Assembly (NCBI GenBank): GCA_963792575.1
Contig: CAWBWZ010000020.1
Location: forward strand, 935,788-999,787
DNA from: an uncultured Acidobacteriota bacterium
Lineage (GTDB): Bacteria > Acidobacteriota > Thermoanaerobaculia > Multivoradales > UBA5704
DNA: 64,000 nt
Reading direction: 5' to 3'
In this document: positions 9,117-50,810 of the stretch, piece by piece
Layout of the letters: every line of letters starts with the position of its first letter
How positions within the stretch are numbered: position 1 is the first letter of the stretch
Translations under genes and position numbers: made by a program
The notes under the pieces: generated by a model
Seen by the model: the letters and a program-made list of their open reading frames with translations, nothing else
Told to the model about the DNA's origin: nothing
Databases searched by the model: none

Positions 9117-10250
9117 CTAGGTATCGATCGCCTGCCCCAGATCCGCGATCAGATCGTCCGCGTCCTCGATCCCCACCGACAGGCGGATCAGGTCCGGCGG
9201 CGGACCCAGCCTCCCCCGCAGCTCGTGCGGGATGCTGGCGTGGGACATCCGGCAGGGCAGGCTGATCGAGGAGCCCACCGAGCCGAAGCTCACCGCGATC
9301 GCGAACAGCCGCGCGGCCTCCACAATCCTCCGGGAGCGCTCCGGATCGCCCGTGGTGAAGCTCACGACCGACCCCGGACCGCTCGCCTGACGCTCGTGGA
9401 TCTCGCGGACCGCCGGCGGCGCCAGCATTGGAAAGAAAACCCTTTCAATCCCTGGATGAGCGGCGAGGTACTCCGCGATCCGCGCCGCCGTCGCGCCCTG
9501 GCGCTCGACGCGCAGCGCCAGCGTCTTCATCCCCCGCAGCAGCAGCCAGCTGTCGAACGGCGCCAGCCCCGTTCCCTCGGCGTTGAGGTGGAAGGCGAGC
9601 CGCTCGTGGAGGGCGGGGTCGTCGGTCACCACCGCCCCGGCGCTGACGTCGCCGTGGCCGCAGAGAAATTTGGTGGCCGAATGGATCACCAGGTCGGCCC
9701 CCAGCGCCAGCGGACGCTGGAGGCAGGGGGAGAGGAGCGAGTTGTCCACCGCCAGCAGCGCGCCGCCGCGATGGGCGATCTCCGCCAGGCGCGCCAGATC
9801 GGCGATCCGCAGCAATGGGTTGGTCGGCGTTTCCACCAGCAGCAGGCGGGTGGCCGGGGAGAGCGCCGCCGCGACCGCTTGGCGGTCGGTGGTGTCGACG
9901 TGGCGGACGCGCACTCCCAATTCCGGCGCCACCCGGGAGAGGAGGCGGACCGTGCCGCCGTAAAGATCGTCGCCAGCGAGGATCTCCTCCCCGGCTTTCA
10001 CCAGACGGGTGACGGCGACGAGCGCTGCCATGCCGCTGCCAAAGGCGCAGGCGAAGCGCCCCCCTTCCAGGGCCGCGAGATGCTCCTCGGCCAGCGCGCG
10101 GGTCGGGTTGGCCGTCCGCGAGTAGTCGTATTCGCCGAATTCGGCGGCGCCCGGCTGGCGGAAAGTCGCCGTCTGATAGATCGGCGGCGCCGTGGCGCCG
10201 TACGGGTCGTTCCCGGGAGGAAGATGAACGCAGCGAGTGGCGAGCTTCAT
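9117..10250 (-). CDS. Cys/Met-metabolism PLP enzyme, cystathionine beta-lyase-like
   Basis: YSRTANPT, DNSLLSP and HSATKFLCGH (PLP Lys) motifs. Full length. ATG at 10250 overlaps the hom stop (ATGA). Confidence 0.8.
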   Translation of the reverse strand: MKLATRCVHLPPGNDPYGATAPPIYQTATFRQPGAAEFGEYDYSRTANPTRALAEEHLAALEGGRFACAFGSGMAALVAVTRLVKAGEEILAGDDLYGGTVRLLSRVAPELGVRVRHVDTTDRQAVAAALSPATRLLLVETPTNPLLRIADLARLAEIAHRGGALLAVDNSLLSPCLQRPLALGADLVIHSATKFLCGHGDVSAGAVVTDDPALHERLAFHLNAEGTGLAPFDSWLLLRGMKTLALRVERQGATAARIAEYLAAHPGIERVFFPMLAPPAVREIHERQASGPGSVVSFTTGDPERSRRIVEAARLFAIAVSFGSVGSSISLPCRMSHASIPHELRGRLGPPPDLIRLSVGIEDADDLIADLGQAIDT

Positions 10251-11734
10251 GCCGCACCTTCTTGCCGCCACTCGAAGTCCGCCGCCAAATCGAACAGATC
10301 GGCCATCACCGCCTCGGTCGTGGGCCAGCGTCCGGCGCCATGGGCCGCGATCCTGATCTGGCCTCCACCTTCAAGCTGGACCACCAGGGCGTTGTCCGCG
10401 CCCGCCGTCCACGCGCAGGGGTGGTCCGGCAACAGGACGAGAGGCTGAACGCTGGCCCGCAGCCCACCCTCGGTGCGTTCGCAGGAAGCCACCAGGCGCA
10501 GCCGTCTCCCCCGCCGCGCCGCCTCGGCGGCGGCGCGCTCGTCGAGGTCCGCGATCCCCCGCCGCGGGATGTCTGCCCAGGGCAGGGGAACGCCGAAGGC
10601 TTCCCGGGCGAGAAGCGAGAGCTTCTGCGCCGCGTCCGAGCCGTCGAGATCGAGGGTAGGATCGGCCTCGGCGTAGCCGGCATCGCGGGCCAGCGCTACC
10701 GCCTCGGCGAAGGAGGTGCCGGCCGCGCAGCGGTCGAGAACGAAATTGCAGGTGCCGTTCAGGACCCCGGTGAGCGCCTGGACCCGGCCGGCAGCCGCCG
10801 CCCGCCGCACCGCCTCCAGCGCCGGCAGCGCGCCGCCCACACTGGCGCTGAAACGCAGGGAGACGCCGCGCCGCCGCGCCACTTCCGAAAGGTTTTCCAC
10901 CTCGCCGGCGAGGAGGGCCTTGTTCGCCGTCACCACGTGGCGCCCGCTGTCGAGCGCCCGGGCGATCGATCCATGAGCGGGCTCGCGCCCCCCGAGCAGC
11001 TCCACCACCACGTCGGCCTCGCGCGCCAGCAGCGCCGCGGGATCGTTCGTCAGCAGCCGGCGTGGCACGGCGGGCTCGCGGACGCGGCCGAGGTCCCGCA
11101 CCGCGACCCCGATCACCTGAAAACGTGTGGGGAGGGCGAGGAGACGAGCCAGCACGCCGCCACCCACGGTGCCGCAGCCGAGCAGGGCCACGCGCAGGGG
11201 CGGGCCGGCGACCCCAGGTGGAGCCACGCGGTCCGGACAGGCGGCGCCCAGCTTTGCCGCGAGAAAACGGGCGGTGAGATTCGGACCGATTCGAGTCACG
11301 CGGCCGGCGGGGTCCCGTCCGGCACCGCCGGGGACCACCACGATGGCGCGCTCCAGTTCCTGATGGAGATAGGGGACGTCCACGGCGGCGGGTTCGGCGC
11401 CGAGCCGGTCGTCGCCCTGAGTGACAAGGCCGATCTGGGTGGGATCGAGAAGCGTGGCGGGAAGGCCCGAGCGGTCGAGCGCGAGAGTCAGGAGAGCGGC
11501 CGCGGCCGTCTCACCGGTTCCGAGCAGGGCGGCCAGCCCCTCCCGTTGCGGTGGCAGGCCCAGCTGCTGGGCCCGCTTGAGCAGGTCGTCGGTGGTACAG
11601 CCGAGGGCCGGGACCACCGCCAGGACACGGCGGCCGGCTCGCCACTCGCGATAGATTTCGTGGACGGCGAGCGGCAGATCGGCGTCGGCGCGCGGCGCGG
11701 AGCTGGCGAAATTCAGCACGGAAATCTGATTCAT
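10247..11734 (-). CDS. hom: homoserine dehydrogenase with an N-terminal degenerate aspartokinase-like domain
   Basis: C-terminal 2/3 carries LLGCGTVGGGV (NAD fold), VVTANKALLA and ADPTLDLDGSDAAQKLSLLA. The N-terminal ~170 aa align in pattern to the amino-acid-kinase fold but lack KFGG and GRGGSD. GAGGAGAG SD precedes the start. Confidence 0.8.
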   Translation of the reverse strand: MNQISVLNFASSAPRADADLPLAVHEIYREWRAGRRVLAVVPALGCTTDDLLKRAQQLGLPPQREGLAALLGTGETAAAALLTLALDRSGLPATLLDPTQIGLVTQGDDRLGAEPAAVDVPYLHQELERAIVVVPGGAGRDPAGRVTRIGPNLTARFLAAKLGAACPDRVAPPGVAGPPLRVALLGCGTVGGGVLARLLALPTRFQVIGVAVRDLGRVREPAVPRRLLTNDPAALLAREADVVVELLGGREPAHGSIARALDSGRHVVTANKALLAGEVENLSEVARRRGVSLRFSASVGGALPALEAVRRAAAAGRVQALTGVLNGTCNFVLDRCAAGTSFAEAVALARDAGYAEADPTLDLDGSDAAQKLSLLAREAFGVPLPWADIPRRGIADLDERAAAEAARRGRRLRLVASCERTEGGLRASVQPLVLLPDHPCAWTAGADNALVVQLEGGGQIRIAAHGAGRWPTTEAVMADLFDLAADFEWRQEGAA

Positions 11735-11759: not shown

Positions 11760-12932
11760 TCACGCCTCCAGGGCGCGGCGCAGGTCGGCGATGATGTCGT
11801 CGGGGTTTTCGAGCCCGACGGAGATCCGGATCAGGCCGTCGGTGATACCGGTCGCGAGCCGCTGCTCCACCGGCACCGCGGCGTGAGTCATCGAGGCGGG
11901 GTGGGTGACGAGGGTTTCGGCGGCGCCCAGGTTCTCGGCCAGGGCGCAGAGGCGGACGCCGTTCATCACGCGGACGCCGGCCTCCGTCCCGCCCTCGACC
12001 TCGAAGGCCATCAGCGCGCCGCCGCTCCCCTGCTGCCGGCGGGCAAGCTCGTGTTGTGGAAAGGATTCCAACCCGGGATAAAGGATCTTCGTCACCCGCG
12101 GATGACTTTCGAGAAAGCGGGCCACGCGCAGGGCGTTGGCCGAGTGGCGCTCCATGCGCAGCGGCAGCGTCTTCACCCCCTGCAGGGTCAGCCAGGCGTT
12201 GAACGGCGACTGGATGGCCCCGATGGCGTTGCGCAGAAAAGTGAGCTTTTCGTGCAGCTCGGCGTCGCGGGTGATCAGCGCGCCACCCAGGGTGGCGTTG
12301 TGCCCCTCGATGAACTTGGTGGTCGAATGGAGCACGATGTCCGCGCCGAGATCGAGCGGGCGCTGCAGCACCGGCGTCAGTAGCGTGTTGTCCACCACCA
12401 CGACGGCCCCGGCACCGTGGGCGAGCCGCGCGACGGCCTCGATGTCGGTGAGCTTGAGGGTGGGATTGGCGGGCGTCTCGATGAACACCAGGCGCGCCGG
12501 ACGGCGGAGGGACTCCTCCCAGGCGGCCAGATCCGCCGCGTCCACGAACTCGGACTCGACGCCGAATTTGGCGAGGATCTTCTGGAAGAGACGCACGGTG
12601 CCGCCGTAGACCACGTCGGAGAGCACGGCGCGGTCGCCGGCCCGCAGCAGGGCGAGGGCCAGCGCGGCCGTGGCCCCCAGCCCGGTGCCGAAGCAGCTCG
12701 CGTGGTCCGCCCCCTCCAAAGCCGCCAGCCGCCGCTCCAGGGCGCTGACGGTGGGGTTCGCCGTCCGGCTGTAGGTGAACCCCTTGTCGCTCCCCACCGC
12801 CTCCAGCACATAGGTGGTCGACTGATAGATCGGCGTCAGCAGCGCGCCCGTGGCGGGATCGGGATACGCGCCGGCATGGAGGGCGAGCGTATCGAGCGAC
12901 GGATCGGTTTCGAGGCCGAAGGAAATCGTCAT
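11760..12932 (-). CDS. cystathionine gamma-synthase / gamma-lyase family PLP enzyme (first gene of the met operon)
   Basis: YSRTANPTVSALE, DNTLLTP and HSTTKFIEGH motifs. AGGAGA SD before the ATG at 12932 (MTISFG...). Confidence 0.8.
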   Translation of the reverse strand: MTISFGLETDPSLDTLALHAGAYPDPATGALLTPIYQSTTYVLEAVGSDKGFTYSRTANPTVSALERRLAALEGADHASCFGTGLGATAALALALLRAGDRAVLSDVVYGGTVRLFQKILAKFGVESEFVDAADLAAWEESLRRPARLVFIETPANPTLKLTDIEAVARLAHGAGAVVVVDNTLLTPVLQRPLDLGADIVLHSTTKFIEGHNATLGGALITRDAELHEKLTFLRNAIGAIQSPFNAWLTLQGVKTLPLRMERHSANALRVARFLESHPRVTKILYPGLESFPQHELARRQQGSGGALMAFEVEGGTEAGVRVMNGVRLCALAENLGAAETLVTHPASMTHAAVPVEQRLATGITDGLIRISVGLENPDDIIADLRRALEA

Positions 12933-12954
12933 GACTGTCTCCTGAAAAATGATC

Positions 12955-12996
12955 GTGAAAAACAAAAAACCACCGCCGGGGAAGCCGGGCGGTGGT
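12955..12996 (-). terminator. intrinsic terminator (attenuator) inside the met-operon leader
   Basis: Minus strand reads CCACCGCCCGG-cttcc-CCGGCGGTGG followed by TTTTTTGTTTTT, ending about 20 nt before the metB-like start codon. Confidence 0.7.
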
Positions 12997-13028
12997 CTTT
13001 CGCTGGTGAAAGCTGTGAGGTGGGTACT

Positions 13029-13148
13029 CTACAGGATGACGCACCCCGCGTCCGCGAAAAGGCCAGCGCCCGGCGAGCGCATGCTCATGGGCATTCGCGC
13101 GCTCATGGGCGCGCTACAGAGGCCGGCGGTCGCGAAACGGAGCTCCAT
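13029..13148 (-). CDS. candidate Met-rich leader peptide (39 aa) of the met operon
   Basis: MELRFATAGLCSAPMSARMPMSMRSPGAGLFADAGCVIL has 4 Met within residues 15-23. The ATG lies only a few nt after the predicted TSS, so it would be leaderless. The stop is 32 nt before the terminator stem. No SD. Confidence 0.3.
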   Translation of the reverse strand: MELRFATAGLCSAPMSARMPMSMRSPGAGLFADAGCVIL

Positions 13149-13157
13149 CACGGCATC

Positions 13158-13186
13158 AATGTAGGGGGCGTTCACCTTGTTGTCAA
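13158..13186 (-). promoter_or_regulatory. sigma70-type promoter of the met-operon leader
   Basis: Minus strand reads TTGACA, a 17-nt spacer (acaaggtgaacgccccc), then TACATT. Confidence 0.55.
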
Positions 13187-13380
13187 GAGCGAGCCCGCGG
13201 CTTGTTTCTTGCATTCTGTGCACGCCGTAGCACTGAATCGCAGTAGCCCTCAGGGCCGGGAGAAGCGTCTCTTTCCTATACGTCGAGCGGAGCCGTTCGC
13301 ATCGTGCAGACGGGTCGGAGCTGTGCTCAGACTGTATCGGTCTGAGTGGTGACGATCCTTACTCGTAAAGGAGGAAGTAG

Positions 13381-14646
13381 ATGGCGCGTCTGAAGAGAAG
13401 ATTGTCGACAAAATTTTTCATCAGTGTATTTCTGACATTGGTTGTGGCCGTTCCGCTGGTGTACGCCGAGGTGGATGCCCCGACCGGCTTCGACGACCAG
13501 ACCAACGGCTTCAGCTCACAGTTGAAGTTTGAGACGGACCGTGATCAGTTTGAGGAGCGCGAAGACATCCTCAAGGGCCTGGGGCCGGTTTACAACGCGC
13601 AAGCGTGCGCGGAGTGCCACCAGAATCCGATCTCTGGATCTGGCACCCAGTTCAGCGAGTTGCGGGCCGGACGAACCGTGGCCGGCGTCTTCACCGAGCA
13701 TGCTGGCGGATCGTTAATCAACGACCGCGCGATCGATGCCAGAATCCAGGAGGAGGTCTTCGACAGCGACGATACGCGGACCTTCCGCATATCCCTGAAT
13801 GTCCTGGGCGACGGTTTCGTCGAAGCGATCCCTGACGCCGAATTTACGCGCATTCAGACCGACCAGCCAGCCGGAATGAAGGGGACCATCATTTCCGTGC
13901 CCGTACTGGAGGCTTCCCTCAATGGCAGCGTCTTCACCAGGATCGCCCGGTTCGGCTGGAAAGATCAGCACGCGAGTCTAGTCTCCTTCGCGGCGGATGC
14001 CTATCTGAATGAAATGGGGATCACCAGCCCACTCTTCCCGAACGAGAACACATCGAACGGCAACTCCGTCGCGGCTTTCGATATCAAGTCCGACCCCGAA
14101 GACTTGCCGACGACGGAACACCCCTTCGGCAAGGATGTCGAATCTTTCGCCCGTTTCATGCGCTCCACCAAAGCTCCGGATCGCTCTCCGGCAGCGCAGG
14201 ATCCAAACGACCCGAGCTATGCAGATATCCAGGCGGGAGCGGAATTCTTTGCACGCATCAGCGTCGGTGGCATCGGCTGCGCTGACTGCCATACGGATAC
14301 GATCACGACCGCTTTAGCGGGCACTTCCTTCAACGGCGGCATGTTCATCGTCCCCAACGCCCTGGGAGACAAGATCATCCATCCCTATAGTGATTTCATG
14401 CTGCACGACGTTGGAACGGGGGACGGCATCGTCCAGAACGGTGGCCCGGAAACGCGCAACAAGATTCGCACGCCGCCGCTCTGGGGTCTGCGTACTCGCA
14501 CCCGCCTGATGCACGACGGCCTGACACTCACGCGCAAAGACGCCATCGCGCGCCACGCCGGTCAAGCCGCGGGGGTTATCACAAGCTACAACGGTCTGAG
14601 CAACGGGCAGAAGGCCAAGCTCCTCGCCTTCCTGGGCTCGCTGTAG
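13381..14646 (+). CDS. di-haem cytochrome c oxidoreductase/peroxidase-like protein (DUF1111-like), secreted
   Basis: AAGGAGGAAG SD, signal peptide, and two CxxCH haem motifs (CAECH, CADCH). Length and layout match the DUF1111 family. Somewhat lower GC than the flanks. Confidence 0.65.
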   Translation: MARLKRRLSTKFFISVFLTLVVAVPLVYAEVDAPTGFDDQTNGFSSQLKFETDRDQFEEREDILKGLGPVYNAQACAECHQNPISGSGTQFSELRAGRTVAGVFTEHAGGSLINDRAIDARIQEEVFDSDDTRTFRISLNVLGDGFVEAIPDAEFTRIQTDQPAGMKGTIISVPVLEASLNGSVFTRIARFGWKDQHASLVSFAADAYLNEMGITSPLFPNENTSNGNSVAAFDIKSDPEDLPTTEHPFGKDVESFARFMRSTKAPDRSPAAQDPNDPSYADIQAGAEFFARISVGGIGCADCHTDTITTALAGTSFNGGMFIVPNALGDKIIHPYSDFMLHDVGTGDGIVQNGGPETRNKIRTPPLWGLRTRTRLMHDGLTLTRKDAIARHAGQAAGVITSYNGLSNGQKAKLLAFLGSL

Positions 14647-50576: not shown

Positions 50577-50810
50577 GGGGAGGGGCTTGTCCCCTCCCTC
50601 GCCCCCAGAGGGGGCGAAATTTATCCAGCCTGGGGTGTCAACCCCAGGTGGGGAGGCACCCCGAATCCAAACCCTGTAAGGGTGGCCGATTCCAACCCGA
50701 TCGGCCACCCCTGCGGGGTTTGGGTTGGTGGGGCCGGCCCACCTGGGGTTGACACCCCAGGCTGGATAAATTCGCCCCTCCGGGGCGAGGGAGGGGACAA
50801 GCCCCTCCCC
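50577..50810. mobile_element. MITE-like palindromic element, copy 2 (234 bp, longer TIRs, interior inverted relative to copy 1)
   Basis: Shares aatttatccagcctggggtgtcaaccccaggtgg at both ends. The interior is the reverse complement of 32061..32150 with a few mismatches. Extra outer arms ggggaggggcttgtcccctccctcgcccc are present. Confidence 0.8.

What the first reader, a model, noticed from the sequence alone, without database searches (positions are those of the whole stretch)
12933..13186. met-operon leader: promoter, Met-rich (possibly leaderless) sORF and intrinsic terminator, with no recognisable SAM riboswitch
Upstream of the metB-like / hom / metC-like operon, the minus strand shows TTGACA-17-TACATT. 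A 39-codon ORF starts a few nt after the expected TSS: MELRFATAGLCSAPMSARMPMSMRSPGAGLFADAGCVIL, with 4 Met in a 9-residue window. The Met codons sit in a duplicated GCCCATGAGC unit that forms two hairpins (gcgcgc-ccatga-gcgcgc and atgc-ccatga-gcat). Further GC hairpins follow, and then a canonical terminator (CCACCGCCCGG / CCGGCGGTGG plus a T-run) about 20 nt before the metB-like ATG. I could not find SAM-I core strings (GAGGGA...CCCGGCAACC...) or other SAM-class motifs. Leader-peptide attenuation is classical for the his, trp, leu, thr and phe operons. As I recall, Cys-rich leaderless uORFs act as Cys-responsive attenuators in mycobacteria. A Met-codon-based attenuator would be unusual.
Basis: partly seen in the sequence, partly recalled or inferred. 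Interest (0 to 1): 0.6.

Follow-up and report, generated by a model that had tools for sequence, protein, structure and literature searches.

The report
Leaderless methionine leader-peptide attenuator of metB
A 39-codon, methionine-codon-rich mini-gene at the very start of the metB-hom-metC transcript, followed by a terminator/antiterminator switch, most likely turns methionine synthesis on when ribosomes stall for lack of charged Met-tRNA; this sensor type is barely documented for methionine, yet look-alikes precede metB and metY genes in several phyla.

Summary
The minus strand carries TTGACA-17-TACATT, an ATG 9 nt later, a 39-codon sORF with 4 Met in 9 residues, an intrinsic terminator, and then metB-like, AK-like/hom and metC-like genes. 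No Rfam family matches.

All 17 same-genus leaders keep the promoter, the ATG next to the transcription start, and 3-5 in-frame Met codons. sORF indels are all codon-sized, whereas spacing after the stop codon is not.

Directly 3' of the Met run lies the invariant CCGGGCGCTGG. It pairs 10/11 with the terminator's 5' arm, forming an antiterminator. Distant relatives upstream of metB or metY use different arm sequences but the same layout. Other metB orthologues carry SAM-I/IV or SAM-II-like leaders at this position.

Met-rich sORFs occur before 21/75 metB and 25/79 metY loci, against about 0.3 in shuffles.

Best reading (0.8): this is a ribosome-mediated transcription attenuator sensing Met-tRNA. 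It is not unprecedented, because MetL leader peptides were predicted in Campylobacter and Streptomyces. It is a new, uncatalogued family.

The parts
13181..13186 (-). -35 hexamer TTGACA
   Evidence: 10/12 promoter match. TTGAC[AT] is conserved at the same distance from the sORF ATG in all related leaders, while the flanks differ.
13158..13163 (-). -10 hexamer TACATT, 17-nt spacer
   Evidence: Relatives carry TACATT, TACGTT, TACAGT or TAGATT at this position.
13029..13148 (-). Leaderless (0-3 nt 5' UTR) 39-codon leader ORF MELRFATAGLCSAPMSARMPMSMRSPGAGLFADAGCVIL*
   Evidence: The ATG column is invariant in 17 leaders. The ATG-to-seg2 distance takes the values 51, 54, 57, 60, 63 and 75 in the 17 homology-selected leaders, all multiples of 3.
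13080..13106 (-). Regulatory Met-codon run (codons 15, 19, 21, 23)
   Evidence: Every relative has 3-5 in-frame Met codons ending 6 nt before seg2.
13097..13114 (-). Hairpin GCGCGC-CCAUGA-GCGCGC, inside a lineage-specific 12-nt in-frame insertion
   Evidence: The 12-nt insertion is present only in L001-L004, and this exact hairpin only in L001-L002.
13081..13094 (-). Hairpin AUGC-CCAUGA-GCAU formed by the Met codons
13121..13127 (-). Candidate segment 1 (GCCGGCC, codons 8-10). Together with GCCC at 13092-13089 it pairs with seg2 in the ribosome-free fold (anti-antiterminator).
   Evidence: In relatives the partner varies but is always C-rich sORF sequence upstream of seg2.
13063..13073 (-). 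Segment 2, CCGGGCGCUGG: the 5' strand of the antiterminator, inside the sORF (codons 26-29)
   Evidence: Near-invariant, wobble positions included: identical in 16 of the 17 A1 leaders. It pairs 10/11 with seg3. Duplex energy is -24.1 kcal/mol. It is the best upstream partner of the terminator arm.
13130..13145 (-). 5' arm of the long-range helix P1 (codons 2-7)
   Evidence: MFE fold. It pairs with 13059-13041. Similar CCGCGCGUC/GACGCGGGG pairing was seen by eye in relatives and was not formally tested.
13041..13059 (-). 3' arm of P1 (codons 30-36)
12985..12995 (-). Segment 3, CCACCGCCCGG: the terminator 5' arm, shared with the antiterminator
12970..12979 (-). Segment 4, CCGGCGGUGG: the terminator 3' arm
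   Evidence: One compensatory C-G to U-A change occurs in L044.
12958..12969 (-). U-tract UUUUUUGUUUUU
12938..12943 (-). Shine-Dalgarno sequence of the metB-like gene
11760..12932 (-). metB-like gene (cystathionine gamma-synthase family, 390 aa)
   Evidence: NF005871, 450.8 bits, below the curated cut-off of 513.
10247..11734 (-). Homoserine dehydrogenase with an N-terminal aspartokinase-like part
   Evidence: NF004976, 283 bits, above its cut-off.
9117..10271 (-). metC-like gene (cystathionine beta-lyase family)
   Evidence: TIGR01329, 466.5 bits, just below the cut-off of 487.5.

Best explanation
This is a ribosome-mediated (leader-peptide) transcription attenuator that measures charged elongator Met-tRNA.

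Transcription starts at or within about 3 nt of the sORF's AUG, so a 70S ribosome loads on the nascent 5' end (inferred).

When Met-tRNA is plentiful, the ribosome passes the four Met codons and segment 2 and runs to the stop codon. The stop lies between segment 2 and segment 3. Behind the ribosome, segment 2 is captured by C-rich sORF sequence upstream, forming an anti-antiterminator that is further locked by a long-range helix. Segment 3 then pairs with segment 4, and RNA polymerase terminates at the U-tract 25 nt before metB.

When Met-tRNA is scarce, the ribosome stalls with one of the first three internal Met codons in its A site. This breaks up or masks the upstream partners but leaves segment 2 (6-30 nt downstream) free. 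Segment 2 pairs with segment 3 as soon as it emerges, forming the antiterminator. The terminator cannot form, and metB-hom-metC is transcribed.

Shown by analysis: the sequence elements, their conservation, the reading frame, and the alternative pairings with their energies. Inferred: the transcription start, translation of the sORF, stalling, and the response to methionine.
For: 1. Anatomy: promoter, start-proximal AUG, 4 Met in 9 codons, and terminator.

2. Coding constraint in 17 leaders found by DNA homology alone.
- The ATG column is invariant.
- ATG-to-seg2 distances take six values, all multiples of 3. The non-coding stop-to-seg3 distances are 33-42 and include 37, 38 and 41.
- 27 of 28 internal ATGs are in frame in 8 non-redundant lineages, and 74 of 77 in 20 lineages.

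3. Antiterminator.
- RNAalifold selects the seg2:seg3 helix on its own.
- 93% of cells are paired, against 20-57% when the partner is slid.
- The duplex energy is -24.1 kcal/mol, against -20.8 for seg3:seg4.
- Changes in L044 and L046 keep pairing through G-U. L043's C-to-U change adds a pair opposite an inserted A (by eye).

4. Architecture-level covariation. In L117 and L119 (another family, upstream of metY) the terminator arm is CCCGCAGC(G/C), and its perfect complement GCGCUGCGGG sits 1-4 nt after the Met run. In 14 of 15 leaders with a recognisable terminator, the best partner of the terminator arm starts 1-11 nt (14 in L093) after the last Met codon.

5. Folding with a ribosome footprint. 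When the stall is at any Met codon but the last, the RNA that has emerged up to seg3 folds into seg2:seg3 (9-10 pairs) in 17 of 17 leaders. Behind a ribosome at the stop codon, 6-10 of seg2's 11 nt are paired upstream.

6. Regulatory niche. Orthologous metB genes carry SAM-I/IV (L103) or a SAM-II-like element plus terminator (L057 and others) at this position.

7. Enrichment. Met-run sORFs occur before 21/75 metB loci (reverse complement 1, shuffles 0.2) and 25/79 metY loci (reverse complement 6, shuffles 0.4).

8. No Rfam hit. A single copy in the genome.
Against: - There is no experimental evidence.
- Inside the genus the three segments are nearly invariant, so classical base-pair covariation is almost absent. 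Shuffle controls are not exceeded.
- At equilibrium the full-length leader always prefers the terminator. The ribosome-free truncated RNA prefers seg2:seg3 in 16 of 17 leaders. The switch therefore has to be kinetic.
- The partner that sequesters seg2 (segment 1) is not the same in all lineages and is only predicted.
- The stop codon lies 31 nt beyond seg2, so a terminating ribosome does not mask seg2 as it does in trp.
- Methionine is also needed for initiation, which could blunt a Met-sensing leader.
- The distant examples were found by screening for Met-rich ORFs, so their frame statistics are partly circular.
Confidence: 0.8

Rival explanations
1. The leader is an undescribed riboswitch that binds SAM, methionine or a related metabolite directly. 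The terminator/antiterminator is its expression platform, and the open reading frame is incidental.
For: The leader is strongly structured (z = -3.7). It has a long-range helix and internal hairpins. It occupies the position where SAM-I/IV and SAM-II-like elements sit in orthologues. Seg2 and seg3 are conserved at the nucleotide level.
Against: No match to any Rfam riboswitch even at E<=10. The 5' two-thirds of the leader vary freely in sequence and length, but only in steps of 3 nt. The features shared with distant members are the start-proximal AUG, in-frame AUG codons and the position of the antiterminator strand, not an aptamer-like fold. The hairpins with CCAUGA loops are lineage-specific.
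Confidence: 0.05
2. The sORF encodes a regulatory arrest peptide. The nascent chain (for example the conserved M-[RP]-x-P-G-A-G) stalls the ribosome in response to free methionine or SAM. This would resemble the MTO1 region of plant cystathionine gamma-synthase mRNA or the RAPP/RAPG bacterial arrest peptides, rather than sensing tRNA charging.
For: P-G-A-G follows the Met run in all genus members, and M-P-x-P-G recurs in Planctomycetota leaders. The regulated gene is the same enzyme that is controlled by a SAM-sensing nascent peptide in plants (my own knowledge).
Against: The PGAG codons are invariant at wobble positions and coincide exactly with the antiterminator strand, so the constraint is on the RNA. 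In L117 and L119 the same position encodes P-A-L-R-V with a different, perfectly complementary strand. The metY-type leaders have no such motif. The only residue type common to all is Met, plus Cys in many.
Confidence: 0.06
3. The sORF and terminator form a general translation-coupling or stress sensor, or simply a constitutive partial terminator. The Met codons give it no specific link to methionine supply.
For: Any slowing of the leading ribosome would favour the antiterminator. Equilibrium folds do not by themselves discriminate the states.
Against: Met makes up 11% of the residues in 20 non-redundant leader peptides. The runs are strongly enriched specifically upstream of metB and metY on the sense strand. 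The element is single-copy in the genome and sits before the methionine operon. SAM riboswitches occupy the same site in orthologues.
Confidence: 0.07

Closest known systems
Classical leader-peptide transcription attenuators (E. coli/Salmonella trpL, hisL, leuL, thrL, pheL, ilv leaders)
   Same: A short leader ORF enriched in codons for the pathway's end product. An intrinsic terminator stands before the first structural gene. A mutually exclusive antiterminator shares the terminator's 5' arm, and its other strand lies just 3' of the regulatory codons.
   Different: The amino acid sensed is methionine. The sORF has no Shine-Dalgarno sequence and starts at the transcript's 5' end. The Met codons lie in the loop enclosed by the seg1:seg2 pairing rather than in segment 1. 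The stop codon lies 31 nt beyond seg2, between seg2 and seg3. The host phylum is Acidobacteriota.
Campylobacter jejuni MetL (20-aa leader peptide with 3 Met codons upstream of metBA; Porcelli et al. 2013, PMC3847290; translation seen by TIS profiling, bioRxiv 10.1101/2022.11.09.515450)
   Same: A Met-codon leader peptide upstream of a metB operon on a short RNA that ends just after the sORF. It was proposed to act by ribosome stalling. It is also only predicted to respond to Met.
   Different: MetL was sought with an RBS, so it is not leaderless. [quoted passage not shown] Sequence relatedness was not tested here, because the MetL sequence is not in the text I could read.
Streptomyces lividans leaderless metL (MSTTSDRTPATEATTTPGARCMCRRMCAF) upstream of metNIQ (Droste et al. 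2021, PMC8079986)
   Same: A leaderless Met/Cys-containing leader ORF before a methionine-related operon.
   Different: It precedes a transporter operon, and the authors found no typical intrinsic terminator. No sequence similarity is evident by eye (no alignment was run).
Mycobacterial polycysteine leaderless sORF attenuators (Canestrari et al., bioRxiv 10.1101/834739)
   Same: A leaderless regulatory sORF that senses a sulfur amino acid through ribosome stalling. This is the only experimentally tested relative of this design.
   Different: Those use Cys, not Met, codons. They act on translation by occluding the Shine-Dalgarno sequence, and the authors showed that transcription termination is not involved. 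The element here has a canonical terminator 25 nt upstream of an unoccluded SD.
SAM riboswitches (SAM-I/IV, SAM-II) with terminator platforms
   Same: The same regulatory niche. They sit upstream of orthologous metB genes in sister lineages and end in an intrinsic terminator.
   Different: They sense SAM directly by an aptamer. No aptamer is detectable here, and the signal would be Met-tRNA charging.

Membership tests
Leader-peptide (ribosome-mediated) transcription attenuator | Short ORF in the 5' leader that is conserved as an ORF | tested here: met
   The start ATG is invariant and the frame is open in 17/17 homology-selected leaders. Indels are multiples of 3 only inside the ORF.
Leader-peptide (ribosome-mediated) transcription attenuator | [quoted passage not shown] | tested here: met
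   4 Met in 9 codons. All relatives have 3-5 Met codons. 74/77 ATGs are in frame and 11% of residues are Met. Enrichment over shuffles and the reverse strand is shown.
Leader-peptide (ribosome-mediated) transcription attenuator | Intrinsic terminator between the sORF and the first structural gene | tested here: met
   10-bp G+C-rich stem (about 13 bp with its A/U extension) plus U-tract, -17.9 to -23.4 kcal/mol, 88% of cells paired across 18 sequences, one compensatory change.
Leader-peptide (ribosome-mediated) transcription attenuator | Antiterminator mutually exclusive with the terminator and positioned so that a ribosome stalled at the regulatory codons leaves it free | tested here: met
   seg2:seg3 pairs 10/11 at -24.1 kcal/mol. 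It forms in the constrained folds for stalls at all but the last Met codon in 17/17 leaders. The same layout appears with different sequences in L117 and L119.
Leader-peptide (ribosome-mediated) transcription attenuator | Anti-antiterminator (1:2) that sequesters segment 2 when translation is unimpeded | tested here: inconclusive
   It is predicted in every leader (6-10 of 11 nt of seg2 paired behind a ribosome at the stop codon). However, the partner differs between lineages, and the equilibrium fold of the truncated free RNA prefers seg2:seg3 in 16/17 leaders.
Leader-peptide (ribosome-mediated) transcription attenuator | sORF is translated, and read-through rises when the cognate charged tRNA is limiting | not testable with these tools
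   This needs Ribo-seq, toeprinting and reporter or in vitro assays.
SAM riboswitches (SAM-I, I/IV, IV, II, V, III, VI, SAM/SAH) | Match to the aptamer covariance model | tested here: not met
   No hit at gathering score or at E<=10. Positive controls among the loci: L103 SAM-I/IV, and L161 and L185 SAM-I.
Met T-box leader | T-box covariance model (specifier loop, T-box sequence) | tested here: not met
   No T-box hit at E<=10.
Mycobacterial polycysteine leaderless sORF translational attenuators | Leaderless sORF | tested here: inconclusive
   The AUG lies 9 nt after the -10 (6-11 nt in relatives), with no SD. The TSS was not mapped.
Mycobacterial polycysteine leaderless sORF translational attenuators | Consecutive Cys codons, and the sORF pairing with the downstream gene's SD (translational control without termination) | tested here: not met
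   The regulatory codons are Met, with only 2 scattered Cys. The SD at 12943-12938 lies downstream of a canonical terminator and is unpaired in the fold.
Campylobacter MetL leader peptide | Sequence homology to C. jejuni MetL or its leader RNA | not tested
   The MetL sequence is in a supplementary figure that is not held. Only the functional analogy could be assessed.

The most novel reading that the evidence does not exclude
This leader is one family of a large, multi-phylum and essentially uncatalogued class of leaderless Met- or Met/Cys-codon leader-peptide attenuators. The class controls metB and metY (and, according to other notes of this scan, metX, metG, metNIQ and metE).

It would be the main alternative to SAM riboswitches for methionine control, and it reads Met-tRNA charging instead of SAM. 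Its shared design is an AUG at the transcript's 5' end, an antiterminator strand placed directly 3' of the Met run, and a stop codon between the antiterminator strand and the terminator.

That design may also make the operon default-ON when initiation itself fails for lack of fMet-tRNA.
Probability: 0.5. Interest if true: 0.7.

Novelty: new member of a known kind. Interest (0 to 1): 0.58.

Why it matters
Textbook accounts give methionine biosynthesis SAM riboswitches, T-boxes or protein repressors, but no leader-peptide attenuator. The literature I could search holds only passing predictions: C. jejuni MetL and S. lividans metL.

This leader shows a complete attenuator (promoter, start-proximal sORF, Met run, antiterminator, terminator) that is conserved across an uncultured Acidobacteriota genus. 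The same architecture, with unrelated arm sequences, occurs before metB and metY in other Thermoanaerobaculia. In my own sample of loci it also occurs in Vicinamibacteria, Acidimicrobiia, Gammaproteobacteria and Eisenbacteria; the two Planctomycetota metB leaders share the Met-run sORF but lack a canonical terminator.

If confirmed, three things would follow:
- It would add methionine to the amino acids sensed by ribosome stalling.
- It would explain how lineages without a SAM riboswitch at these genes regulate them.
- It would provide a compact, easily testable Met-tRNA sensor.

It also raises a specific question. How does such a sensor cope with methionine also being required for initiation?

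Tried and rejected
- Rfam gathering and permissive scans of the leader gave only chance-level sRNA or terminator-like hits, the best being ar14 at E = 0.47.
- A protein-database search with a 44-aa orthologous leader peptide found nothing. The window's own 39-aa peptide is below the tool's 40-aa minimum.
- Equilibrium folding of the full leader with a ribosome footprint always kept the terminator. I rejected it as a test, because attenuation is kinetic, and replaced it with folding of the transcript truncated after seg3.
- Covariation statistics on seg2:seg3 and seg3:seg4 inside the family are uninformative, because the segments barely vary.
- The covariance model R1 finds only close relatives plus a few weak true hits. 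Two weak hits (L121, L122) lie inside coding regions and were discarded.
- I looked for a metY gene with its own leader in this genome. None is present in the 76%-complete assembly.
- I considered the two CCAUGA-loop hairpins as a tandem-hairpin ligand sensor like guanidine-II. I rejected this because the first hairpin is lineage-specific and the loops are simply Met codons.
Full report
**What is there**

All features lie on the minus strand.
- The only sigma-70-like promoter in 12700-13500 is TTGACA (13186-13181), a 17-nt spacer, and TACATT (13163-13158). It matches 10/12 positions; shuffles give 0.1 such sites.
- Nine nucleotides after the -10 hexamer, with no Shine-Dalgarno sequence, an ATG (13148) opens a 39-codon frame. 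It encodes MELRFATAGLCSAPMSARMPMSMRSPGAGLFADAGCVIL* and ends at TAG 13031-13029.
- Met codons sit at positions 15, 19, 21 and 23.
- The terminator follows: CCACCGCCCGG (12995-12985), CCGGCGGTGG (12979-12970) and UUUUUUGUUUUU (12969-12958). Its hairpin energy is -17.9 to -23.4 kcal/mol.
- An AGGAGA Shine-Dalgarno sequence lies at 12943-12938, and the ATG of the first gene is at 12932.
- The operon encodes a cystathionine-gamma-synthase-family protein, a homoserine dehydrogenase with an aspartokinase-like N-terminal part, and a cystathionine-beta-lyase-family protein. This is a transsulfuration route to homocysteine.
- Rfam 15 finds no riboswitch or T-box in the leader, at gathering thresholds or at E<=10.
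- The leader folds much better than shuffles (z = -3.7).

**Is the small ORF real?**

The window comes from an uncultured soil Thermoanaerobaculia (Acidobacteriota) genome. A DNA search of 60 relatives recovered the leader in 17 same-genus genomes.

In all of them TTGAC[AT]-17/18-TAnnnT is kept at the same place, although the sequence upstream is unrelated. An ATG follows 7-11 nt after the -10 hexamer. In the MAFFT alignment that ATG is an invariant column.

The distance from the ATG to the invariant CCGGGCGCTGG takes six values in these homology-selected leaders: 51, 54, 57, 60, 63 and 75 nt. All are multiples of three. The non-coding distance from the stop codon to the terminator arm takes the values 33, 36, 37, 38, 39, 41 and 42. 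This gives an internal control: indels are codon-sized only inside the ORF.

Every leader has 3-5 internal Met codons clustered just before that invariant block. Among eight non-redundant genus lineages, 27 of 28 internal ATG triplets are in the ORF's frame.

The peptide itself is otherwise poorly conserved. A search with a 44-residue orthologue found nothing in the 5.8-billion-protein collection. The peptide therefore does not look like a functional protein.

**The switch**

The block directly 3' of the Met run is CCGGGCGCUGG (13073-13063, codons 26-29). It is near-invariant, third codon positions included: 16 of 17 leaders are identical. It is complementary in 10 of 11 positions to the terminator's 5' arm.
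- RNAalifold selects this long-range helix as the consensus structure on its own.
- On an 18-sequence alignment it is paired in 93% of cells, against 20-57% when the partner is slid. The terminator is paired in 88%.
- The duplex energy is -24.1 kcal/mol, against -20.8 for the terminator arms.

Because the three segments hardly vary inside the genus, classical covariation is nearly absent. Only one compensatory pair is seen in the terminator (L044). The antiterminator shows G-U-preserving changes in L044 and L046, and a C-to-U change in L043 that adds a pair.

The stronger argument is at the level of architecture. In two genomes of another family of the class (L117, L119), a leaderless sORF precedes metY: MGNLLPTAAVMCLAMAMPMPALRVGNGDTTI in L117 and MGRRHAHTAVSRAMAMVMRMPALRVVSGRDLSV in L119. 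There the terminator arm is CCCGCAGC(G/C), and its perfect complement GCGCUGCGGG lies 1-4 nt after the Met run. Across 15 leaders with a recognisable terminator, the energetically best upstream partner of the terminator arm starts 1-11 nt (14 in L093) after the last Met codon in 14. It is usually better than all or nearly all shuffles.

**How it probably works**

I folded the RNA that has emerged when segment 3 is out but segment 4 is not. With a ribosome footprint placed at any Met codon except the last, the RNA downstream of the ribosome forms the seg2:seg3 antiterminator (9-10 pairs) in 17 of 17 leaders. With the last Met codon in the A site, the footprint reaches into segment 2.

Behind a ribosome that has reached the stop codon, 6-10 of segment 2's 11 nucleotides are already paired with C-rich sORF sequence upstream. 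In the window these partners are GCCGGC at 13127-13122 and GCCC at 13092-13089. The whole is enclosed by a long-range helix between codons 2-7 and 30-36.

The stop codon lies 31 nt beyond segment 2 and about 36 nt before segment 3. A terminating ribosome therefore sits between the two antiterminator strands.

The model is kinetic. An unimpeded ribosome lets segment 2 be captured from behind and separates it from segment 3, so the terminator forms. A ribosome stalled on the Met codons leaves segment 2 free, so the antiterminator forms.

Two caveats apply.
- At equilibrium the full leader always prefers the terminator.
- The ribosome-free truncated RNA prefers the antiterminator in 16 of 17 leaders. 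The segment-1 pairing is therefore the weakest part of the model.

The second caveat might mean that an untranslated leader defaults to read-through. That would suit an amino acid that is also needed for initiation, but this is speculation.

**Context and distribution**

The element is single-copy in its genome. Genome-wide, only ten loci combine such a promoter with a start-proximal ORF of 11-71 codons, and only this one has a Met run.

Orthologous metB genes in other lineages carry other leaders at the same position:
- a SAM-I/IV riboswitch in L103;
- in Pyrinomonas and other Blastocatellia, a SAM-II-like element just below Rfam's threshold (28.1 against 36 bits, E = 1.4e-4) followed by a terminator.

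This places the sORF leader in the regulatory niche of methionine/SAM sensors.

Among 75 metB-homologue loci, 21 have a Met-run sORF upstream, against 1 on the reverse complement and 0.2 in shuffles. They include gp22 and other Acidobacteriota and two Planctomycetota (MSIFATDTMMTMLMPSPGGVVSVQAK, leaderless; and MFSTVSTMRVLTPAMGMAMPIPDGVNRMDRSVPL).

Among 79 metY loci, 25 have such an sORF, mostly with alternating Met and Cys codons (for example ...CAMCMCMCLQ..., NMCMDMCMCMPM...). These come from Thermoanaerobaculia, Vicinamibacteria, Acidimicrobiia, Gammaproteobacteria, Eisenbacteria and Bacteroidota.

I inspected eight of the metY leaders. By eye, seven show a TTGAC[ACT]-17/18 promoter with a -10-like hexamer, an ATG roughly 6-11 nt later, a strand complementary to the terminator arm just after the run, and a canonical terminator; L154's -10 was not clear. 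None matches an Rfam family, except that two Bacteroidota loci also carry a SAM-I riboswitch.

The scan's own index lists 22 earlier notes on Met/Cys leader ORFs in at least 21 other genomes. I treat these as leads only, but they agree with what I saw.

**What is known**

Leader-peptide attenuation is classical for trp, his, leu, thr, phe and ilv. For methionine I found only predictions:
- a 20-codon MetL with three Met codons before metBA in Campylobacter jejuni, on an RNA that ends just after the sORF (PMC3847290), later shown to be translated (bioRxiv 10.1101/2022.11.09.515450);
- a leaderless metL before metNIQ in Streptomyces lividans, without a clear terminator (PMC8079986).

An earlier survey of Actinobacteria found no RNA element for methionine (PMC1262725). 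The leaderless polycysteine sORFs of mycobacteria, the only tested relatives, act on translation and not through a terminator (bioRxiv 10.1101/834739). Phrase searches for a methionine leader peptide or attenuator returned nothing relevant.

The element is therefore a new, uncatalogued member of a known kind of regulator. It has an amino-acid specificity that is rare and untested in the literature.

**Verdict**

- Observation: confirmed.
Two corrections apply: the twin hairpins are incidental, and Met leaders have been predicted before.
- Best explanation: a Met-tRNA-sensing, leaderless leader-peptide transcription attenuator, confidence 0.8.
- Rivals: an unknown riboswitch, an arrest peptide, or a non-specific sensor. 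Each is at or below 0.07.
- Nothing here is experimental.

Noticed in passing
L123, L127, L133, L135, L136, L137, L139, L154 (upstream of metY; about nt 250-600 of each locus): A widespread class of leaderless Met/Cys-alternating leader ORFs (MCMCM-type). Each has a strand complementary to the terminator arm just 3' of the run and a canonical terminator before metY. It occurs in Acidobacteriota, Acidimicrobiia, Gammaproteobacteria (Wenzhouxiangella, Halomonas) and Eisenbacteria, in 25 of 79 metY loci, with no Rfam family.
   Followed up: partly
L161 220-328 and L185 344-471: Two Bacteroidota metY leaders combine a SAM-I riboswitch with a Met/Cys-rich sORF in the same leader. The sORF is downstream of the riboswitch in L161 and upstream of it in L185. 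This suggests dual SAM and tRNA-charging control.
   Followed up: no
L057 1258-1329 (also L080, L087, L095, L109): metB leaders of Pyrinomonas and other Blastocatellia carry a conserved SAM-II-like element that scores 28.1 bits, below Rfam's gathering score of 36 (E = 1.4e-4). An intrinsic terminator follows. This is probably a SAM-II variant that Rfam's threshold misses.
   Followed up: partly
L034 (DASWME010000058.1), about 130 nt upstream of metB: In this metB orthologue of the same genus-level group, the TTGACA promoter is joined almost directly to the terminator region and the sORF is missing. It is a natural deletion variant of the attenuator.
   Followed up: no
L011 (G013:C7:63147-63286) and L015 (G026:C1:52298-52371): L011 is a second, complete copy of the leader (promoter, sORF MNPRLATSASSSLRMPMGMRRPGAGLLADARFVET, terminator) that is not followed by metB. 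At the homologous place in another genome (L015), a remnant lacks the sORF and lies upstream of a gene that I guessed from its N-terminal sequence to be an MFS-type transporter (no family search was run).
   Followed up: partly
window 10247-11734 (-): The homoserine dehydrogenase of the operon has a roughly 170-residue N-terminal part with weak aspartokinase matches (residues 25-165). Its match ends at position 323 of the 430-position model, which suggests that it lacks the usual C-terminal ACT domain.
   Followed up: no
L107 and L108 (Planctomycetota metB loci): These have Met-run leader ORFs with the same M-x-M-x-M-P-x-P-G motif but no canonical terminator. In L107 the fold pairs sequence next to the metB Shine-Dalgarno sequence, so control there may be translational.
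   Followed up: partly
window 50742-50787 (+): Acido-Lenti-1 RNA (RF01687, 45 bits against a gathering score of 37). This is the only Rfam hit in the window.
   Followed up: no
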